Part shown: positions 5,482 through 61,157 of the stretch, one piece after another
How the letters are laid out: each line of letters opens with the position of its first letter
Numbering within the stretch: position 1 is the stretch's first letter
From: a virus
Taxonomy: Duplodnaviria; Caudoviricetes
Direction: 5' to 3' (one strand)
Virus record (IMG/VR): IMGVR_UViG_3300033233_001970
DNA length: 64,000 nucleotides
Position numbers and translations under genes: made by a program
The notes under the pieces: model-generated
What the model was told of the DNA's origin: nothing
What the model saw: the letters and a program-made list of their open reading frames with translations, nothing else
Databases searched by the model: none

Positions 5482-5981
5482 TTTGATTCTCCGTTTTTGC
5501 GAAGCTGATCGATCTCCGAGCAGAGCCCCGCGATGGCGTCGGCGATTTGACGCGAATTCTTTGGACTAACCTGTACGTCGGTAGGCCAAGGGATATGCAT
5601 CGGCGCGCCGCAGCGAGAACATTTTTGATTTCGATCCGTTCCGCAGACTTCGCGCGTACGGTCAACGATGTCTGCGCTCTCTCGGAGGTTCGATTCGAAT
5701 TCTCGAGCCCGCGCGATCATGGCGAGCTTGTCGCTCTCCATTTGCTTCTCGAACTCTTCGGCTGTCGCTGTGTTGAGATAGCGTTTGATGTGGTGAACCG
5801 ACGAGGCTGATACAGCTTCGCTGTGTCCAACAGCATGAACCCGAGGATTGGTCTTTCGGCAGCCGCAGAGAACCTTGTCATCGTGTTTCGGCGAGTCGAT
5901 CACGCGCTCGGTGTACGGGCATTTGTGAAAGTCGCAGAGCGCGGAGGCGAGCGCGAGCCGAGCGGTTCGATCGAAGCTCAT
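5478..5981 (-). CDS. hypothetical protein
   Basis: 167 aa, coupled. Confidence 0.55.
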   Translation of the reverse strand: MSFDRTARLALASALCDFHKCPYTERVIDSPKHDDKVLCGCRKTNPRVHAVGHSEAVSASSVHHIKRYLNTATAEEFEKQMESDKLAMIARAREFESNLRESADIVDRTREVCGTDRNQKCSRCGAPMHIPWPTDVQVSPKNSRQIADAIAGLCSEIDQLRKNGESK

Positions 5982-6154
5982 TTTTTTTCTTTCTCTAGCT
6001 CGCGGCGCCAGTCGCCATCGCTCGATTTTAGTTTTCGAATTTCAGAAGCGAAATAGCTTGCGTCCAGACCGATGCCTTTTTCGCGTCGTAATTCCTCGAC
6101 GCGGAGCGCGGCGGCTTCGAACGCAGCGTCAGCGCTCGCTGCTTTCTTATCCAT
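5978..6154 (-). CDS. hypothetical protein (MDKKAAS...)
   Basis: internal ATG at 6154. Confidence 0.45.
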   Translation of the reverse strand: MDKKAASADAAFEAAALRVEELRREKGIGLDASYFASEIRKLKSSDGDWRRELEKEKK

Positions 6155-6407
6155 TTTTCGCCGCCTTTCGCCGTTCTGCTTTTTTCGCCGCCTTCGCGAG
6201 CCTCTTCTGTCGAAGCTCGAACGCGACGCATGCCTTGACCACGAGGTCGGCCACGGCGTCGAGCGTGAGGCTGTAGGTGCGCCTACGGCGCAGCGGACGC
6301 ACCTCGAACATGGGTAGGGCGTCTCGGCTGATCGTGACGGTGCCCGCCTGCACGCGGCTAGCGTCGTCAAGGCGTCCGGTGACGCGGAAACGCGCGACTC
6401 GGCTCAT
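6147..6407 (-). CDS. small basic hypothetical protein, first gene after a sigma70-type promoter
   Basis: strong RBS AAGGGGAACGAACC-ATG. Confidence 0.65.
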   Translation of the reverse strand: MSRVARFRVTGRLDDASRVQAGTVTISRDALPMFEVRPLRRRRTYSLTLDAVADLVVKACVAFELRQKRLAKAAKKAERRKAAKNG

Positions 6408-26824: not shown

Positions 26825-28729
26825 GTGATGGAAGCAGAAGATGTGGAAGTGGAAGAGAACGTCGAAATCAGCGCTGGCCGTACCCGCGTCTACAAGTACG
26901 GTCTCCTTGCGCCTACCGTGAATACCAAGATCGTCGAAGCGCAGATGCGGCTCGCGCACAACTATCGCAATACGCTTGTCGAGATCGAGCGTGGGCGTCG
27001 CAATGCGCAGCGTTCTGTGCTTGCGAAATTCGATCTCTCCGGAAAGGAACAGGCGGTTCTGGCCACAAGAGCGGAGCTCGAAGCTGCCTTGCTCGCGGTG
27101 CGCGTTGCGCGTGCAGCCTCAAGATCACGTTCCGAGACCGAAGATATGCGTGATCGGGTCAAGGCGGCGAGAAAATCACACAAAGAATCGACGAAGGCTC
27201 TCGCGATCGAGCGCAAAGCGCTCCGCGCGGACACCCAAGTTCAGCTCGAGATCGACGTCATCAACGATCGTGCGGCTGAATTGCGCCGCAGCGCGCGTGC
27301 GTTTTCGGGCCTCGGAGAAATGGGGCCTCACTTCGGTGCGTGGGGCACCTATTTGCTGATCGAAGCCGCCGACATGGCAGCGCGAAAAGCTCCATTCTTC
27401 AAGGATTCGGAGCCCAACGACCCGAGATTCGTTCGATTCGAGGGCGAAGGTCAGGTGAGCGTACAGCTTCAAGGCGGCATGAGCGTCGAGGATCTTTTCA
27501 GCGGCTTCCATGCACGCGCACGTGTCGACGCCGTAAACGAAAATGCGTGGTTCGCGAAGAAGCGCGGAGACCGCAGGCGCGCCTCGCGCACGATGCTGTC
27601 GCTTCGGGTCGCCTCCGAAGGTCGCGATCCCGTGTGGGCGACGTGGCCGATGATCATGCACAGACCGATTCCAGAAGGCGCGAGTATTCAACGCATCACC
27701 GTGAGCCGTCGAAAGTACGGCCCGCGTGAAGAATGGTCGGTCGATTTCACACTGAAACTCTCCGACAAGACTCCGGCACGCACAAAATGCGGGCAATCGG
27801 GCGTGGTGACGATCGATCTCGGGTGGCGAACGATCGGCAACGAGATCCGTGTCGCTGCGTGGCGCGACGATCAAGGAAAACATGGTGAGCTACGCCTCGA
27901 CGCGCGTGCTGTTTCGGGATTGAAGAAGCCGGACGAGCTCCGATCGCTTCGTGACGAAAAGTTCAACTTTGCGCGGGCTGCTCTCATCGAAATATTGGGA
28001 AAGGTAACCATTCCCGATTGGCTTCGAGAGGAGATTTCACACATCGCGCAATGGCGCTCGCAGGCGCGACTCGCAGCGCTCGCTCGAAAGTGGAGCGATC
28101 GTCACTTCGAAGGTGACGACGAGGCGTACGCGATGATCGAAACATGGCGCTACCGCGACCACCATCTGTGGGAATACGAATCTGGACAGCGCATCGGTTC
28201 GTTGCGGCATCGGCGCGAGATCTATCGACGCTTCGCCGCCGAGCTCGGGCGGAAGTACAAGACACTTCTTCTCGAGGATTTCGACCTGCGCGGGGTCGCG
28301 ACACGGGCACCGACCGAAGAAGGAGCAGAAAATCTCGTTGCTCGTCGGAACCGGCAACTCGCCGCCGTCAGTGAGCTTCGCGGCTGCCTCTGCAATGTTT
28401 TCGGCGAAGACGCGTTGAAGGTTTCTCCTGAAAATTCGACGCACATTTGCAACGCATGCGGAGCGGTCGAGGAGTTCGACGCAGCTTTGAAGATCGATCA
28501 CACGTGTTCGGCGTGCGGAGCGACGTGGGATCAGGACGACAACGCGACGATCGTGCTTTTCGAGAGGTGGCGCGCCGCGAAAAAGGCGGAAGCCGCTCGC
28601 GCGGCTGAAAATCCGAAGGATGCTAATGTGGTACGCGAATCAAGATGGGTTCGGGCAAAGAGAATGAAGGAGGCAAAAATCGAAAGACAGAACGCTGCTC
28701 GCAACAAGGATCCGAAAGACGAGGAATGA
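26825..28729 (+). CDS. cas12m: type V-M CRISPR effector (Cas12m / former V-U1)
   Basis: 634 aa; VYKYGL...QMRLAHNYRNTLV, RFEGEGQVSVQLQ, MHRPIP, RuvC-I TIDLGWR, QWRSQARLA, RuvC-II LLLEDF, Zn ribbon CNAC/CSAC, RuvC-III WDQDDNA; array begins 19 bp after the stop. Confidence 0.88.
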   Translation: MMEAEDVEVEENVEISAGRTRVYKYGLLAPTVNTKIVEAQMRLAHNYRNTLVEIERGRRNAQRSVLAKFDLSGKEQAVLATRAELEAALLAVRVARAASRSRSETEDMRDRVKAARKSHKESTKALAIERKALRADTQVQLEIDVINDRAAELRRSARAFSGLGEMGPHFGAWGTYLLIEAADMAARKAPFFKDSEPNDPRFVRFEGEGQVSVQLQGGMSVEDLFSGFHARARVDAVNENAWFAKKRGDRRRASRTMLSLRVASEGRDPVWATWPMIMHRPIPEGASIQRITVSRRKYGPREEWSVDFTLKLSDKTPARTKCGQSGVVTIDLGWRTIGNEIRVAAWRDDQGKHGELRLDARAVSGLKKPDELRSLRDEKFNFARAALIEILGKVTIPDWLREEISHIAQWRSQARLAALARKWSDRHFEGDDEAYAMIETWRYRDHHLWEYESGQRIGSLRHRREIYRRFAAELGRKYKTLLLEDFDLRGVATRAPTEEGAENLVARRNRQLAAVSELRGCLCNVFGEDALKVSPENSTHICNACGAVEEFDAALKIDHTCSACGATWDQDDNATIVLFERWRAAKKAEAARAAENPKDANVVRESRWVRAKRMKEAKIERQNAARNKDPKDEE

Positions 28730-28748: not shown

Positions 28749-29827
28749 GTTGCAAAGGTTGCTCGACACCTGGGAGATCGAGACGTGCTACCGGTGAAGA
28801 CGATTTGGCGTCCGAAATCGTTGCAAAGGTTGCTCGACACCTGGGAGATCGAGACAGTTGGAGCGCGAGATCCGCGCCGTCGCATTGCGGAGTTGCAAAG
28901 GTTGCTCGACACCTGGGAGATCGAGACTACGTGAACACCGTGTGCTCGGAGCCACTCGGCGAGTTGCAAAGGTTGCTCGACACCTGGGAGATCGAGACAG
29001 CACCCAATTGATCGTCTGCGGCGTCGACGACGCGTTGCAAAGGTTGCTCGACACCTGGGAGATCGAGACAAATCCTCGGCGGCCCGCCTCGTCCTCCGCT
29101 ACCTCGTTGCAAAGGTTGCTCGACACCTGGGAGATCGAGACACGGCGAATGAGAAGACCGCCGCACGCGAGAGCGCGGTTGCAAAGGTTGCTCGACACCT
29201 GGGAGATCGAGACTCGGCGAAGCAACGTCAACGCGCCGCGATGCGCCGCGTTGCAAAGGTTGCTCGACACCTGGGAGATCGAGACGTGCTGACGGACGAC
29301 TTTCATTCGGCCGGACGAATCGTTGCAAAGGTTGCTCGACACCTGGGAGATCGAGACTCTCGCCGTTCGGATCGAGACGGTTGCTCGACACCTGGGAGAT
29401 CGAGACTGGTGCCAGAAGGGTTTACGGCGTCGCAAAGGTTGCTCGACACCTGGGAGATCGAGACATCCCGTTAGCGTGTGAAGCCTAAGGCGTCGCGCTG
29501 TTGCAAAGGTTGCTCGACACCTGGGAGATCGAGACGATGCCGATCAGTCGCGCGAGGACGCGACGTCGGCTGGTTGCAAAGGTTGCTCGACACCTGGGAG
29601 ATCGAGACTCTAGGTTGAGCTCAGCGATCTTCTCTTCGACTTCGGTTGCAAAGGTTGCTCGACACCTGGGAGATCGAGACAAGTACCCAACGAAGTACCA
29701 CCTCGCGCACGCCGGGCTGTTGCAAAGGTTGCTCGACACCTGGGAGATCGAGACAGGTAGGGGCGCAAAGGCCGCTGCCCGACGTCAAGGAGTTGCAAAG
29801 GTTGCTCGACACCTGGGAGATCGAGAC
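28749..29827 (+). CRISPR. CRISPR array, repeat GTTGCAAAGGTTGCTCGACACCTGGGAGATCGAGAC (36 bp), 16 repeats
   Basis: 14 perfect copies, one single-mismatch copy (29429) and one 5'-truncated copy (29379); most spacers 35-38 bp; AGGT/ACCT stem plus CTCGA/TCGAG pseudoknot as in Cas12m-type repeats. Confidence 0.98.
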
Positions 29828-29884
29828 CCGGCGCGCGGGTCGCACTACGGCGCCGCGTCGCATGTTGCAAAGGCCGCGTCGCAT

Positions 29885-30396
29885 GTTGCAAAGGTTGCTC
29901 GACACCTTCTAGTTCGAGACGCGCTCGCCGGTTGCTCGACACCAGAAGATCGAGACAGCTTGAATCCCTGCGGTTCTTGCAAAGGTTGCTCGGCACCATT
30001 GAAGATCGAGACTTCACGATTCCCGAAAAGGCAGCTCGACGCCTTGAGCTCGAGACTTCTTTGCGGCCATTTCTCAAAGGTAGCTCGATACCTAGAAATT
30101 CGAGACGAGTCCCGTCTCCAGCAAAGGCTGCTCGACGCCTTCGAAGTCGAGATAGGAGAGCTTCGGAGTTGTAGAATCGTGACAGCAAAGGTAGCTCGAC
30201 GCCTTCGAAGTCGAGGACTACTACGACAACGGACCAGCGGCGGCTCGATGCCGTGAAATTCGAGACTAAGCCACTTGTAAAGGTAGCTCGACACCTTGAA
30301 GCTCGAGACTACATGGGCAGAATCGTAACGGCAGCTCGATGCCTAAAGATCGAGAATCGCCCTCGCAACGGCAGCTCGACGCCTAAAGATCGAGAC
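29885..30396 (+). CRISPR. tail of 11 diverged repeats with short intervening spacers
   Basis: repeats ending at 29920, 29956, 30012, 30056, 30106, 30153, 30218, 30266, 30309, 30356 and 30396; all keep GG-x-x-GCTCG...CC...TCGAG. Confidence 0.85.
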
Positions 30397-30411
30397 GGAC
30401 ATTAAAGCACC

Positions 30412-31020
30412 ATGAAATTCTCCGACATCAAACTTCTCTCCGTGGGCGACACGATCGGCATGGTCGGCGCCGTCTATCTCGACGAGAAAGAAGAGCAGCT
30501 CATCGTCTTCTTTTTTCCTGGCGAGTACGACGGCGCGCCGAGGCTCGGTCTCACCATCAAGCCCGAAGCCGTCGATATGACGGTCGAGGATTGGACGGCA
30601 TTTCTTCGTCAAACCGACTTGCTCGAGACGGAGATTCTCGCCAAGGAATCGAAAGAGAGTGCGACGTTCTACAAAGCGATCGTGCGCAAGAGTCAACGAA
30701 GTATCGATCAGATCGTGTCGTGGCGCGTCTACAAAAGAGATCAATACCGTTGTAGATATTGCGGCAACGACAACATCCCGCTCACGGTCGACCATCTGGT
30801 TCTTTGGGAAAAGGGCGGCCCAAGCACGGAGGCGAACCTTCTGAGTTGCTGCAAAAAATGCAACAAGGTTCGCGGCAACATGCCGTACGCGGAATGGCTC
30901 ACGCACGCGCACTATGCTCGTGTTTCGGCCAAGCTCGACGACACAACGAAGCGCGCGAACGAAGCGCTCGTCGCTACGCTCGACAAGATCCCGCTCAATG
31001 TGCACATCAAGTCGAGGTAA
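30412..31020 (+). CDS. HNH endonuclease with unrecognised ~100-aa N-terminal domain
   Basis: VYKRDQYRCRYCG...LTVDHLV...GGPSTEANLLSCCKKCNKVRG. Confidence 0.88.
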   Translation: MKFSDIKLLSVGDTIGMVGAVYLDEKEEQLIVFFFPGEYDGAPRLGLTIKPEAVDMTVEDWTAFLRQTDLLETEILAKESKESATFYKAIVRKSQRSIDQIVSWRVYKRDQYRCRYCGNDNIPLTVDHLVLWEKGGPSTEANLLSCCKKCNKVRGNMPYAEWLTHAHYARVSAKLDDTTKRANEALVATLDKIPLNVHIKSR

Positions 31021-31024
31021 CGCC

Positions 31025-31588
31025 ATGAAGCGTCATCGCCATCACGATCACGTCGGCGTCATCGACGTCCGCGCAATATGCCACGACTGCGGCGTCAAAG
31101 AGGGTGAGCTGCACCAACGCGGCTGCGACATGGAGAGATGCGCCTTCTGTGGTCGACAAGAGATTTCATGCGGATGTCCACTCAAACACTTCTACCCGTT
31201 CTACATTCGGCTTGGAGATCCTGGAAATACAGAACCTCCGCACTGGGAACCCGCTGACCGAGCTCATGCTCGAAAGTGCAAAAAGAAAGTGTGCACGAGA
31301 TGCGAACGTCTCGTCAGGGAAGGCAAGACGAATCACCTTCCGATGTCGGTTTACATGCACGGTCTCCCGCAGAAGCAAGAAAGAGAATGGGAAGCCATTC
31401 TTAAGGAGAAGGGCCGCGTACCGTGGATTCAATATCCTAATCTTTGTCGACGTTGCGGCGTGACGTGGCCAAAGATGTTTCGCGTGTCTGACGAGGAATG
31501 GGAAAAGTACATCGAGCCCGCGATGCGCGGACACATGATCTGCGGCTCTTGCTGGGATTGGATCAAGAAAGTGACCGACGCAACGTGA
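31025..31588 (+). CDS. multi-Cys zinc-binding protein
   Basis: CHDCGV...HQRGCDMERCAFCG...SCGC; CRRC...CGSC. Confidence 0.65.
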   Translation: MKRHRHHDHVGVIDVRAICHDCGVKEGELHQRGCDMERCAFCGRQEISCGCPLKHFYPFYIRLGDPGNTEPPHWEPADRAHARKCKKKVCTRCERLVREGKTNHLPMSVYMHGLPQKQEREWEAILKEKGRVPWIQYPNLCRRCGVTWPKMFRVSDEEWEKYIEPAMRGHMICGSCWDWIKKVTDAT

Positions 31589-60430: not shown

Positions 60431-60896
60431 ACGCGATCCTGACCCGTACGTGATGTACATCGTCGTGCGTAGGAGCTTGAAGCTCTCCGCTGGCAAAGTC
60501 GGCGCGCAGTGTGGTCACGCCGTCCAGTACCTCATGCAAGAATTTTTGCCCGAGAGATGGCCCACCAGAGACGAGGCGAAGCTCCTGTCACGAAAGGTTG
60601 CCGGAACGCTTACCGACGAAGAACGCACCCGCTTCGAGGCGTTGGAAAAAGAGAAAGACGACCGATACGAACGTTGCGTTACGGCCGGCGAATGGCTTAA
60701 GGGCGATCACGCGAAAATCATCCTCGGCGCGAGCGACGACGAGTTCATGAAAGTGCAGCTCGAGAACGAGCACTTCTTCATGGTCGTCGACCTCGGGTAC
60801 ACCCAGGTTGCGCCTGACACTGAGACGTCGCTCGGCTTATGGCCGATGAGAAAAAGCGCAGCGTCGGAAACCGTCAAGACATTGAGACCGTTGTAA
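60423..60896 (+). CDS. pth2: peptidyl-tRNA hydrolase, PTH2 family
   Basis: MYIVVRRSLKLSAGKVGAQCGHA...W...KIIL...VVDLGYTQVAPDTETSLGLWP. Confidence 0.88.
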   Translation: MTERDPDPYVMYIVVRRSLKLSAGKVGAQCGHAVQYLMQEFLPERWPTRDEAKLLSRKVAGTLTDEERTRFEALEKEKDDRYERCVTAGEWLKGDHAKIILGASDDEFMKVQLENEHFFMVVDLGYTQVAPDTETSLGLWPMRKSAASETVKTLRPL

Positions 60897-60925
60897 AGGC
60901 AGCTCGACGCCGTAAAGCTCGAGAC
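60890..60925 (+). repeat. solitary CRISPR-repeat-like unit GTTGTAAAGGCAGCTCGACGCCGTAAAGCTCGAGAC
   Basis: 36 bp; 27/36 identical to the array consensus and 31/36 to the diverged repeat at 30274-30309; both stems retained. Confidence 0.85.
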
Positions 60926-60950: not shown

Positions 60951-61157
60951 ATGAACGAACACATTCTGCAATTCTTCGTATGGGAACACCTTCCCGAACA
61001 TCTCGCTGAGGTGAGCAAGCCGTTCGGCGAGCTCGCGAACCAGATCGTCGCGACGCTGCCGCGCAATCAGGAGCGCACCGTGGCGCTTCGCAAGCTGCTT
61101 GAGGCGAAGGACGCGGCGGTTCGCGCAAAGCTCGCGAAGGAAGACGTCACGAAGTAA
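60951..61157 (+). CDS. small helical phage protein (possible Acb2/Tad1-like hairpin)
   Basis: ILQFF...HLP-HL--VSKPF...LPRNQERTVALRKLLEAKDAAVRA; RBS GGGAG; the family link is tentative. Confidence 0.6.
   Translation: MNEHILQFFVWEHLPEHLAEVSKPFGELANQIVATLPRNQERTVALRKLLEAKDAAVRAKLAKEDVTK

What the first reader, a model, noticed from the sequence alone, without database searches (positions are those of the whole stretch)
29885..30396. Tail of 11 diverged CRISPR repeats that conserve the pseudoknot by compensatory mutation
Seen: after the regular array come 11 repeat variants with short spacers (about 5-28 nt). Stem 1 co-varies: AGGT/ACCT becomes AAGGC/GCCTT (30028, 30124), AGGTA/TACCT (30078), CGGCG/TGCCG (30238) and GGCA/TGCC (30330). 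CTCGA/TCGAG (stem 2) is nearly invariant, while the unpaired TGGGAGA linker drifts freely. Ordinary trailer decay usually affects one or two repeats and does not preserve pairing. Inference: these units are under selection as Cas12m-binding or processing RNAs. They could be short-guide regulatory crRNAs, an effector sponge, or a control element on the 5' UTR of the HNH gene, which starts 15 nt after the last repeat.
Basis: partly seen in the sequence, partly recalled or inferred. Interest (0 to 1): 0.82.

Follow-up and report, generated by a model that had tools for sequence, protein, structure and literature searches.

The report
Worn, compacted tail of Cas12m array
The 512-bp stretch is the old, far end of a Cas12m CRISPR array: its 11 repeat copies have drifted and their spacers have shrunk, yet the RNA fold that Cas12m grips is kept, and the same pattern recurs in many other Cas12m arrays.

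Summary
Observation confirmed. After 16 regular units (28749-29827) come 11 diverged repeats (29885-30396) with 5-28-nt spacers, and the HNH start codon lies 15 nt after the last one. A second assembler reproduces the tail with no differences.

The pseudoknot helix CTCGA/TCGAG shows 1 change in 110 cells, and G13, A35 and the inner GG/CC are fixed. The loop, the first five repeat bases and the spacers vary freely (event test p about 1e-6). True covariation is narrower than claimed. It affects one pair (T-A x5, C-G x5, T-G x1) plus one cell, and C-G is probably the ancestral state.

The tail is not unique. In 38 other Cas12m loci, diverged units lie distal in 16 of 22 arrays. Distinct double stem changes keep pairing 46 times against 6. 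The gap between scaffolds rarely falls below 18 nt.

Best reading: these are old crRNA units under purifying selection for Cas12m loading, whittled towards minimal size. Four of the ten gaps here are below that floor, so some units are probably dead or guide-less.

No targets, no RNA data and no conserved link to HNH were found, so the sponge, regulator and 5' UTR ideas remain untested. This scan noted similar Cas12m repeat oddities on other DNA.

The parts
26825..28729 (+). cas12m gene (634 aa), the cognate effector
   Evidence: phmmer to PDB 23vw_A 'CRISPR-associated DNA-binding protein Cas12m' E 1.9e-92, and to Cas12m2 8hhl E 1e-25. Pfam Cas12f1-like_TNB. 294 homologues found, the nearest at 51% identity.
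28749..29827 (+). Regular head of the array: 16 units of a 36-nt repeat with 35-38-nt spacers. It includes one point variant (29429) and one 5'-truncated unit (29381-29406) that follows a 21-nt spacer.
   Evidence: The first repeat begins 19 nt after the cas12m stop codon.
29828..29884 (+). Over-long 57-nt spacer at the head/tail border. It holds a 22-nt tandem duplication (end of spacer plus the first 10 nt of the repeat).
   Evidence: read directly from the sequence
29885..29920 (+). T1: scaffold intact (S1 AGGT/ACCT, S2 CTCGA/TCGAG), linker TCTAGT. Only 8 nt before the next stem.
29922..29956 (+). T2: repeat truncated at its 5' end (recognisable from 29930). S1 has 3 of 4 pairs and the linker is 1 nt shorter. 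26 nt to the next stem.
29976..30012 (+). T3: S2 has one G-U pair, the outer S1 pair is broken (A-A), and the linker is 1 nt longer. 16 nt to the next stem.
30022..30056 (+). T4: S1 AAGGC/GCCTT (pair 11-20 is C-G). 21 nt to the next stem.
30071..30106 (+). T5: S1 AGGTA/TACCT (a possible extra A12-T19 pair). 18 nt to the next stem.
30118..30153 (+). T6: S1 AAGGC/GCCTT. The 3' end is AT instead of AC. 35 nt to the next stem. Paralogue of T7.
30182..30218 (+). T7: pair 11-20 is T-G (the wobble intermediate). One extra G before the terminal AC. About 19 nt to the next stem.
30231..30266 (+). T8: S1 CGGCG/TGCCG, with C-G at pair 8-23 and at pair 11-20. 14 nt to the next stem.
30274..30309 (+). T9: scaffold intact, the best tail match to the model (52.6 bits). 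19 nt to the next stem.
30322..30356 (+). T10: S1 shifted to GGCA/TGCC. The 3' end is AA. 12 nt to the next stem.
30362..30396 (+). T11: a 40-nt tandem duplicate of T10 (94% identical). S1 has 3 of 4 pairs. Followed by 15 nt and then the HNH ATG.
   Evidence: (family D4)
30412..31020 (+). Downstream HNH endonuclease gene. It is a neighbour; no functional link was shown.
   Evidence: Pfam PF01844 E 1.6e-8. No terminator-like or promoter-like site between cas12m, array, tail and HNH. Not a conserved neighbour in relatives.
60890..60925 (+). Solitary repeat unit of the tail type. It overlaps the stop codon of a PTH2 gene and ends 25 nt before the ATG at 60951 (after GGGAGA).
   Evidence: model R1 41.7 bits, E 7e-10 over the whole window; sequence; PTH2

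Best explanation
This is the promoter-distal, oldest part of the type V-M (Cas12m) CRISPR array.

Cas12m arrays usually have no adaptation genes next to them, so old units are not turned over. They evolve in place like small genes. In each tail unit, selection keeps the roughly 30 nt that fold into the Cas12m-binding scaffold: the A-rich strand, stem 1, the 5-bp pseudoknot helix and the G13-A35 pair. The loop, the first five repeat bases and the far end of the spacer are dispensable. They drift and are lost by small deletions, and local tandem duplications add copies.

Units therefore shrink from 72 nt to about 47 nt, which is a scaffold plus roughly 14-18 nt of guide. That is close to the 17-18-bp RNA-DNA duplex that Cas12m holds.

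The tail is most likely transcribed with cas12m and the array, cut by Cas12m upstream of each scaffold, and loaded as short-guide crRNAs that can still bind DNA, since Cas12m silences by binding rather than cutting. In this window six units leave 18-35 nt and four leave only 8-16 nt. The latter four are probably dead or only occupy Cas12m.

Shown here: the anatomy, selection on the scaffold, and recurrence in the family.
Inferred: transcription, processing, loading and guide function.
For: 1. The effector is a Cas12m and lies 19 nt upstream of the array on the same strand.
2. Site-specific constraint in the tail. The S2 arms show 1 change in 110 cells. G9, G10, C21, C22 and G13 show 0 changes. 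The 5' flank shows 31 of 77, and the linker differs in nearly every unit. The event-based test gives p 1.1e-6.
3. The constrained positions are those that form the stem, pseudoknot and G-A pair in Cas12m2. The free first bases are those disordered in that structure (PMC10442227). The repeat-derived part is about 30 nt (PMC11013384).
4. The tail tiles the whole 512 bp, and only one scaffold in it is partial (T2, 5'-truncated), although at least 10 spacers were shortened.
5. Family survey of 38 non-redundant loci with 283 variant units found by similarity, not by pairing. Double stem changes keep pairing in 98 cells against 6. Counted as distinct states this is 46 against 6, p 3e-14. Single changes in S2 keep pairing 81 times against 29.
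6. Variant units lie distal in 16 of 22 arrays.
7. The gap from one scaffold's end to the next stem has a floor at 18 nt: 8 cases at 10-17 nt against 40 at 18-25 nt (p 3e-6; without this window 5 against 35). The compact guides in L056, L027 and L050 are all different sequences, so they are not copies of one unit.
8. Published duplex lengths are 17 bp (PMC10442227) and contacts up to 18 bp (PMC11013384).
9. L025 and L027 differ by whole units at the cas12m-proximal end, so the head is the young end.
10. The array of the biochemically studied MsCas12m (pMESIL02) has eight repeats, all different.
Against: - There are no RNA data for this element, so transcription, processing and loading are not shown.
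- No target was found for any spacer, head or tail.
- Four of the ten gaps in this window (8, 12, 14, 16 nt) are below the family floor. Part of the gap is the conserved GCAA/CAA of the next repeat, so the unique guide part is only about 8-31 nt (median about 15), shorter than the 17-bp duplex.
- Three units have altered 3' ends next to the guide (T6 AT, T7 extra G, T10 AA).
- Tail spacers are less G+C-rich than head spacers (53% against 64%, p 0.04), as expected if they drift without constraint.
- Nearly spacer-less units with compensated stems exist in L007/L011. Scaffolds can therefore be kept without guides, which points to a guide-independent role in at least some arrays.
- The 18-nt floor could reflect a loading or processing footprint rather than a guide-length requirement.
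Confidence: 0.58

Rival explanations
1. Scaffold-only function. The tail units, and the solitary unit at 60890, matter as Cas12m-binding RNA sites rather than as guides. They could titrate the effector (a sponge or autoregulator). Alternatively they could act in cis on the operon transcript, as processing sites that create and cap the 5' end of the downstream mRNA or hide its start region (HNH ATG 15 nt after T11; RBS and ATG 15-25 nt after the solitary unit).
For: - Scaffolds are conserved where guides are too short (T1, T8, T10).
- Nearly spacer-less units with compensated stems occur in L007/L011.
- Part of the tail arose by tandem duplication, which adds scaffolds but no new guides (T10/T11, T6/T7).
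- A solitary unit sits just ahead of a gene, and similar solitary units lie behind the arrays of L027 and L057.
- No terminator or promoter match separates the array from HNH.
Against: - The family-wide 18-nt floor and the unique sequences of compact guides fit guides better than pure decoys.
- HNH is not a conserved neighbour.
- Gene starts within 30 nt of array ends occur in about 8 of 30 loci, not clearly above what compact genomes give.
- The nested fold of the tail is no more stable than shuffles (z -0.10).
- There are no expression data.
Confidence: 0.17
2. Dead fossil. The tail is a relic that no longer does anything. Its intact stems reflect selection in the past, when the units were full-length crRNAs, and too little time has passed since for decay.
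For: - Four gaps are below the family floor, three units have altered 3' ends, and one unit is truncated.
- Spacer G+C is lower than in the head.
- The C-G state of pair 11-20 looks ancestral and inherited rather than newly compensated.
- No targets were found.
Against: - Linkers differ from any common form at about a third of their sites, while 110 stem-2 sites carry one pairing-preserving change. In-place neutral decay long enough to scramble linkers should have hit the stems.
- Ten or more spacer deletions spared the scaffolds.
- The same pattern recurs in many independent loci.
Confidence: 0.15
3. Mosaic or decoy. The variant units were imported by recombination from arrays of other Cas12m systems. 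They may serve as RNA decoys (Racr-like) against competing elements' Cas12m.
For: - T6, T8, T10 and T11 are slightly closer to canonical repeats of other loci (L070, L017, L049) than to their own (26 against 22-24 of about 31 positions).
- The first 18 nt of T6 equal the L070 repeat.
- L007 and L011 differ far more within the array than in the flanks.
Against: - The differences are small and are equally explained by retention of an ancestral repeat.
- The element encodes its own cognate Cas12m next to the units.
- No donor array was found.
Confidence: 0.07
4. Assembly artefact of a repetitive region.
For: Arrays often break or collapse in metagenome assemblies. The regular head is not covered by Logan contigs.
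Against: - A 24.5-kb Logan contig covers 29885-31100 with 0 differences at matching depth.
- Each tail unit is unique in sequence.
- The same architecture occurs in many other assemblies and in a finished plasmid.
Confidence: 0.01

Closest known systems
Type V-M CRISPR-Cas12m arrays and crRNA scaffold (MmCas12m2, GoCas12m, MsCas12m; PMC10442227, PMC11013384)
   Same: - A cognate Cas12m gene lies directly upstream.
- The 36-nt repeat ends in ...GAC.
- It has stem 1, a 5-6-bp pseudoknot helix and a G-A pair.
- The first ~7 repeat bases are dispensable.
- The usable duplex is 17-18 bp.
- There is no tracrRNA and typically no adaptation genes.
   Different: The published work used minimal arrays of identical repeats. 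Here 11 consecutive units differ from the consensus and from each other, with 5-28-nt spacers. Diverged, compacted distal tails are not described in the papers I could search.
Degenerate terminal (trailer-end) repeats of CRISPR arrays
   Same: The units lie at the end far from the leader and cas gene, differ in sequence from the consensus, and hold old spacers.
   Different: Usually one or two repeats decay without regard to structure. Here 11 units show a strong contrast between fixed scaffold positions and free positions (p about 1e-6), and their spacers are shortened.
crRNA-like regulatory RNAs and mini-arrays (scaRNA, tracr-L, CreA/CreR, crlRNAs; bioRxiv 10.1101/2023.03.03.530964)
   Same: Degenerate repeats are combined with short or partial guides, and the effector would bind without cutting.
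   Different: Those are stand-alone units of one or two repeats with a recognisable partial target in a nearby promoter. Here 11 units continue a regular array, and no target better than chance exists in the 64-kb window.
RNA anti-CRISPRs / solitary repeat units of viruses (Racr; PMC10651486)
   Same: Repeat-derived RNAs with no or useless guides that could occupy a Cas effector. A solitary unit also exists at 60890.
   Different: Racrs mimic the host's repeats in elements that lack the cognate cas gene. This element carries its own Cas12m and a regular array.

Membership tests
Type V-M (Cas12m) CRISPR array, distal part | A cognate cas12m gene lies adjacent on the same strand | tested here: met
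   PDB 23vw_A Cas12m E 1.9e-92. The gene ends 19 nt before the first repeat.
Type V-M (Cas12m) CRISPR array, distal part | The units are homologous to the array's repeat and contiguous with it | tested here: met
   All 11 units score 40.8-52.6 bits, E <= 1.3e-9, with the repeat model.
Type V-M (Cas12m) CRISPR array, distal part | The repeat can form the Cas12m crRNA scaffold (stem, pseudoknot helix, G-A pair, terminal AC) | tested here: met
   98.5% of stem cells are paired, and S2 is 5 of 5 in every unit. G13 is fixed in 11 of 11 units. The A of the terminal AC is kept in all units, displaced by one base in T7. The terminal AC is altered in T6, T7 and T10.
Type V-M (Cas12m) CRISPR array, distal part | Spacers of regular length (about 35-38 nt here) | tested here: not met
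   Tail spacers are 5-28 nt in 36-nt repeat frames.
Type V-M (Cas12m) CRISPR array, distal part | Transcribed, processed and loaded into Cas12m | not testable with these tools
   No RNA run is listed for this DNA.
Regulatory crRNA-like RNA / mini-array | Partial guide match with a PAM in a promoter of a cas gene or neighbouring gene | tested here: inconclusive
   Best matches of tail guides in the window are no better than those of shuffled guides. The rest of the 246-kb contig and the host genome were not available.
Regulatory crRNA-like RNA / mini-array | Stand-alone unit outside the main array | tested here: not met
   The tail continues the array without a break.
RNA anti-CRISPR (Racr) / viral solitary repeat unit | Repeat mimic in an element that lacks the cognate effector | tested here: not met
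   cas12m lies 1.2 kb upstream of the tail.
Neutral trailer decay | Paired and unpaired positions change at the same rate | tested here: not met
   1 of 15 minimal events falls in 15 core columns against 14 in 7 free columns, p 1.1e-6.

The most novel reading that the evidence does not exclude
Cas12m scaffolds double as cis-acting RNA elements of the mobile element. Guide-less or short-guide units at the array's end, and solitary units placed 15-25 nt ahead of start codons (T11 before HNH; 60890 before the 60951 ORF; similar units behind arrays in L027 and L057), would let Cas12m cut polycistronic transcripts and sit on the new 5' ends. It would thereby control the stability or translation of downstream genes. 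That would be a post-transcriptional regulon run by a CRISPR effector.
Probability: 0.12. Interest if true: 0.8.

Novelty: new variant of a known kind. Interest (0 to 1): 0.58.

Why it matters
Cas12m systems sit on plasmids and phages, silence by binding, and mostly lack spacer-acquisition genes.

If their arrays are long-lived, with each old unit kept under selection and trimmed to scaffold plus a minimal guide, three things follow:
- The arrays record which parts of a crRNA the effector really needs. Sequence data alone give a natural deletion and mutation scan: the first five repeat bases, the loop and everything beyond about 14-18 nt of guide are dispensable.
- Standard CRISPR finders, which expect identical repeats and regular spacers, will miss much of these arrays.
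- The guide-less scaffolds and solitary units raise the testable possibility that Cas12m also acts on the element's own RNAs.

Minimal natural units of about 47 nt are also a ready template for compact multiplex guide arrays. The finished plasmid pMESIL02 of Allomeiothermus silvanus DSM 9946, whose eight repeats all differ, gives a culturable system in which to test this.

Tried and rejected
- **RNA evidence.** No RNA holder is listed for this DNA. Only two DNA runs hold it.
- **Whole genome.** None is held for the window, so the other 180 kb of the contig and the host could not be searched.
- **Close relatives.** IMG/VR has no Cas12m relative by the pattern scan. The nearest protein is 51% identical, so orthologous tail units could not be compared for this element.
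- **Targets.** Head and tail guides matched the window no better than shuffled guides. blastn of the array against phage and plasmid records gave nothing useful; the one hit had E 0.5. Two 24-nt spacer heads had no exact match in IMG/VR.
- **Repeat-core pattern in IMG/VR.** It gave 11 single hits. Only one scored with the model (L121), and that one lies inside a coding sequence of a phage without Cas12m, so it is a chance match.
- **Generic pseudoknot scan.** About 4 hits per kb of background, so it is unusable alone. It was replaced by similarity-based unit finding.
- **MAFFT and model alignments.** Both misplace the last stem-1 base in four units, so pair 8-23 was counted by hand in a fixed register.
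- **Link to HNH.** HNH homologues are not found behind other Cas12m arrays. Distances from array ends to the next ORF are not clearly special.
- **Larger nested RNA structure of the tail.** z-score -0.10.
- **Rfam and tRNA scans.** Nothing was found.
- **L025 against L027.** The shared tail is about 99.5% identical, which gives too few substitutions for a rate test.
- **Wu et al. 2022 (Mol Cell).** The paper is not held.

Full report
**What is there**

The ORF at 26825-28729 (+) is a Cas12m. Its best solved relative is 23vw_A, 'CRISPR-associated DNA-binding protein Cas12m', at E 1.9e-92; Cas12m2 scores E 1e-25. Pfam finds only the TNB zinc-ribbon domain.

Nineteen bases after the stop codon a regular array begins (28749-29827). 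It has 16 units of the 36-nt repeat GTTGCAAAGGTTGCTCGACACCTGGGAGATCGAGAC with 35-38-nt spacers. One unit is a point variant and one is 5'-truncated, behind a 21-nt spacer. A 57-nt spacer holding a 22-nt tandem duplication follows (29828-29884). Then come the 11 diverged units T1-T11 (29885-30396). The ATG of an HNH endonuclease gene lies 15 nt after T11.

A covariance model of the repeat finds all 27 units. It finds only two other places in the 64-kb window. One is a solitary unit at 60890-60925 (41.7 bits). The other is a weak partial match at 19624-19652 inside an ORF, which may be chance.

**Is it real?**

Logan's independent assembly of run X1 has a 24.5-kb contig that covers 29885-31100 with no differences, at depth 61. 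The contig carrying cas12m has depth 70. X1 may be the source sample, so this tests the assembler, not the sample. A second sediment study (X2) holds 100%-identical pieces of cas12m and of the regular array at low depth.

**The fold and what varies**

Positions are numbered 1-36 along the repeat.
- Stem 1 pairs 8-11 with 20-23 (AGGT/ACCT).
- Stem 2, the pseudoknot helix, pairs 14-18 with 30-34 (CTCGA/TCGAG).

This matches the published Cas12m crRNA scaffold. That scaffold has a stem coaxial with a 5-6-bp pseudoknot helix, a G-A pair closing it, a disordered first 7 nt, about 30 nt of repeat-derived structure, and a 17-bp duplex with contacts up to 18 bp (PMC10442227; PMC11013384).

Across the 11 tail units:

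| Region | Changed cells |
|---|---|
| Stem-2 arms | 1 of 110 (an A->G that leaves G-U) |
| G9, G10, C21, C22, G13 | 0 |
| Outer stem-1 positions (8, 11, 20, 23) | 18 of 44 |
| Position 12 | 7 of 11 |
| Position 19 | 3 of 11 |
| Five-prime flank (1-7) | 31 of 77, mostly in bases 1-5 |
| Linker | different in almost every unit |

Counting only the minimal number of events per column, 1 of 15 events falls in the 15 core columns and 14 fall in 7 free columns (p 1.1e-6).

The formal pair count gives 98.5% paired cells, against 24-40% when the partners are slid. The covariation score exceeds all 500 shuffles. Only two pairs carry changes on both sides.

**How much compensation?**

Less than the title suggests. 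Among the 11 tail units, pair 11-20 is T-A in five, C-G in five and T-G in one, with no mismatch. Pair 8-23 has one C-G (T8) and four mismatches.

The C-G state is what the canonical repeats of related loci carry (L070, L017, L093). The first 18 nt of T6 equal the L070 repeat. T6/T7 and T10/T11 are recent duplicates. T7 differs from T6 by the C->T that gives the wobble pair.

So the covariation is best read as an older repeat version preserved in old units. It traces a C-G -> U-G -> U-A path to today's repeat, rather than many fresh compensations.

The strong signal is purifying selection. Linkers differ from any common form at roughly a third of their sites. Unconstrained stems exposed for the same time should carry dozens of changes, not one. 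Ten or more spacer-shortening deletions also left only one partial scaffold (T2).

**The tail is not peculiar to this window**

I collected Cas12m loci from metagenomes and genomes. Repeat units were found by similarity to each locus's own canonical repeat, a method that does not reward pairing.
- In 38 non-redundant loci there are 273 canonical and 283 variant units.
- Where both sides of a stem pair changed, pairing is kept in 98 cells and lost in 6. Counted as distinct states per locus this is 46 against 6, in 13 loci for each stem (p 3e-14).
- Single changes in stem 2 keep pairing (wobble) 81 times against 29.
- Variant units lie at the cas12m-distal end in 16 of 22 arrays that have at least three units of each kind.
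- L056 (38% identical protein) is a near twin of this window. It has four regular units, then about 17 diverged units with periods of 46-53 nt and compensated changes in both stems.
- The finished plasmid pMESIL02 of Allomeiothermus silvanus carries the biochemically studied MsCas12m. Its eight repeats all differ.
- L025 and L027 differ by whole units at the cas12m-proximal end. This fits the usual polarity, with a young head and an old tail.

**Compaction**

I measured the gap from each scaffold's 3' end to the next stem-1 start. The main peak is at 42-45 nt (36-nt spacer plus 7 flank bases). A shoulder runs down to a sharp floor at 18 nt. There are 40 gaps of 18-25 nt but only 8 of 10-17 nt (p 3e-6; 35 against 5 without this window; 12 loci contribute). 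The compact guides in L056, L027 and L050 are all different sequences.

The floor is close to the 17-18-bp duplex of Cas12m. However, 3-4 nt of the gap are the conserved GCAA/CAA of the next repeat, so the unique part at the floor is about 14-15 nt. A loading or processing footprint would give the same floor.

In this window the gaps are 8, 26, 16, 21, 18, 35, 19-20, 14, 19 and 12 nt. Four of the ten are below the floor, more than in any other locus. T6, T7 and T10 also have altered 3' ends. Part of this tail is therefore probably past use.

**Mechanism proposed**

No terminator-like or promoter-like site separates cas12m, the array, the tail and HNH. The simplest picture is one transcript that Cas12m cuts upstream of each scaffold, as published for other Cas12m proteins. 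Each scaffold is then loaded with whatever follows it.
- Units with 18 nt or more can act as minimal crRNAs for a binding-only effector.
- Units with less can only occupy the protein.

All of this is inference. No RNA run exists for the element, and no target was found for any spacer.

**Rivals**

- **Scaffold-only role** (sponge or cis element for downstream genes). This is kept alive by the guide-less units, by the nearly spacer-less compensated units of L007/L011, by the duplications, and by the solitary unit ahead of the 60951 ORF. However, HNH is not a conserved neighbour, and gene starts close behind arrays are not clearly enriched.
- **Pure fossil.** This fits the sub-floor gaps and the lower G+C of tail spacers. 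It does not fit the stem-versus-loop contrast.
- **Import from other arrays.** This cannot be excluded, but nothing requires it.
- **Assembly artefact.** This is excluded as far as contigs can show.

**Context**

The window comes from a 246-kb sediment contig. It carries an integrase, a DNA ligase, and DnaJ-domain, NUDIX, PTH2 and radical-SAM genes. No phage structural gene was recognised among the ORFs I tested. Whether the element is a phage or a plasmid-like element is open.

**Literature and earlier notes**

The searchable literature describes Cas12m scaffolds, mini-arrays, solitary repeat units and degenerate terminal repeats. It does not describe multi-unit diverged, compacted tails of Cas12m arrays. 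Earlier notes of this scan report related oddities of Cas12m repeats on other DNA. I used them as leads only.

Noticed in passing
window 60890-60925 (+): A solitary Cas12m repeat unit of the tail type lies 30 kb from the array. It overlaps the stop codon of a PTH2 gene. It is followed 25 nt later by ATG 60951, preceded by GGGAGA. The model scores it at 41.7 bits.
   Followed up: partly
window 19624-19652 (+): A partial repeat-like match (TCGCAA-GCTCGAC-AAAGAAGATCGAGAC, no stem 1; 25 bits, E 5e-5) lies inside the 490-aa ORF 18534-20006. It may be a relic or a chance match.
   Followed up: no
window 29358-29406 and 29921-29956: Two repeats are truncated at exactly the same base (both start GGTTGCTCG) and are preceded by similar CTCGCCG-containing short spacers. 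One is in the regular head and one is T2. They may be related by duplication or by the same deletion mechanism.
   Followed up: no
window 29850-29893: A 22-nt tandem duplication spans the end of a spacer and the first 10 nt of the repeat. It creates the 57-nt 'spacer' at the head/tail border.
   Followed up: no
L007 and L011 (about 95% identical contigs), just downstream of cas12m: The arrays hold only 4-5 units. Repeats are separated by only 4 nt. Stem 2 runs through GCGCG, GCGGG, GCGAG and GCGAA with matching partners. One orthologous terminal unit differs between the two contigs by a compensated C-G to A-T change in stem 1.
   Followed up: partly
L027 8233-8269 and 8808-8843; L057 3692-3878: Solitary or paired repeat units lie 0.5-2 kb downstream of Cas12m arrays, between ORFs. 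One of them is followed by GGGAGATCTATG.
   Followed up: no
L136 (Allomeiothermus silvanus pMESIL02) 5735-6275: The natural array of the published MsCas12m has eight repeats that all differ from one another. Its spacers are 29-41 nt, and the terminal repeat has changes on both arms of stem 2.
   Followed up: partly
alignment A1 (30 Cas12m relatives); window protein residues D331, E484, D569: An acidic D-E-D set is invariant in this clade. Published D-E-D Cas12m proteins nevertheless bind without cutting (PMC11013384).
   Followed up: no
window 23042-24187 (+) and flanks: A 381-aa ORF has a weak PHROG 'transposase' hit, 2.6 kb upstream of cas12m on the same strand. Earlier notes of this scan call it a TIGR-Tas locus. 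I did not check this.
   Followed up: no
L027 7097 and 7412; L057 1572 and 1674: Segmental duplications occur inside Cas12m arrays. The same spacer appears twice with 2-3 differences.
   Followed up: no
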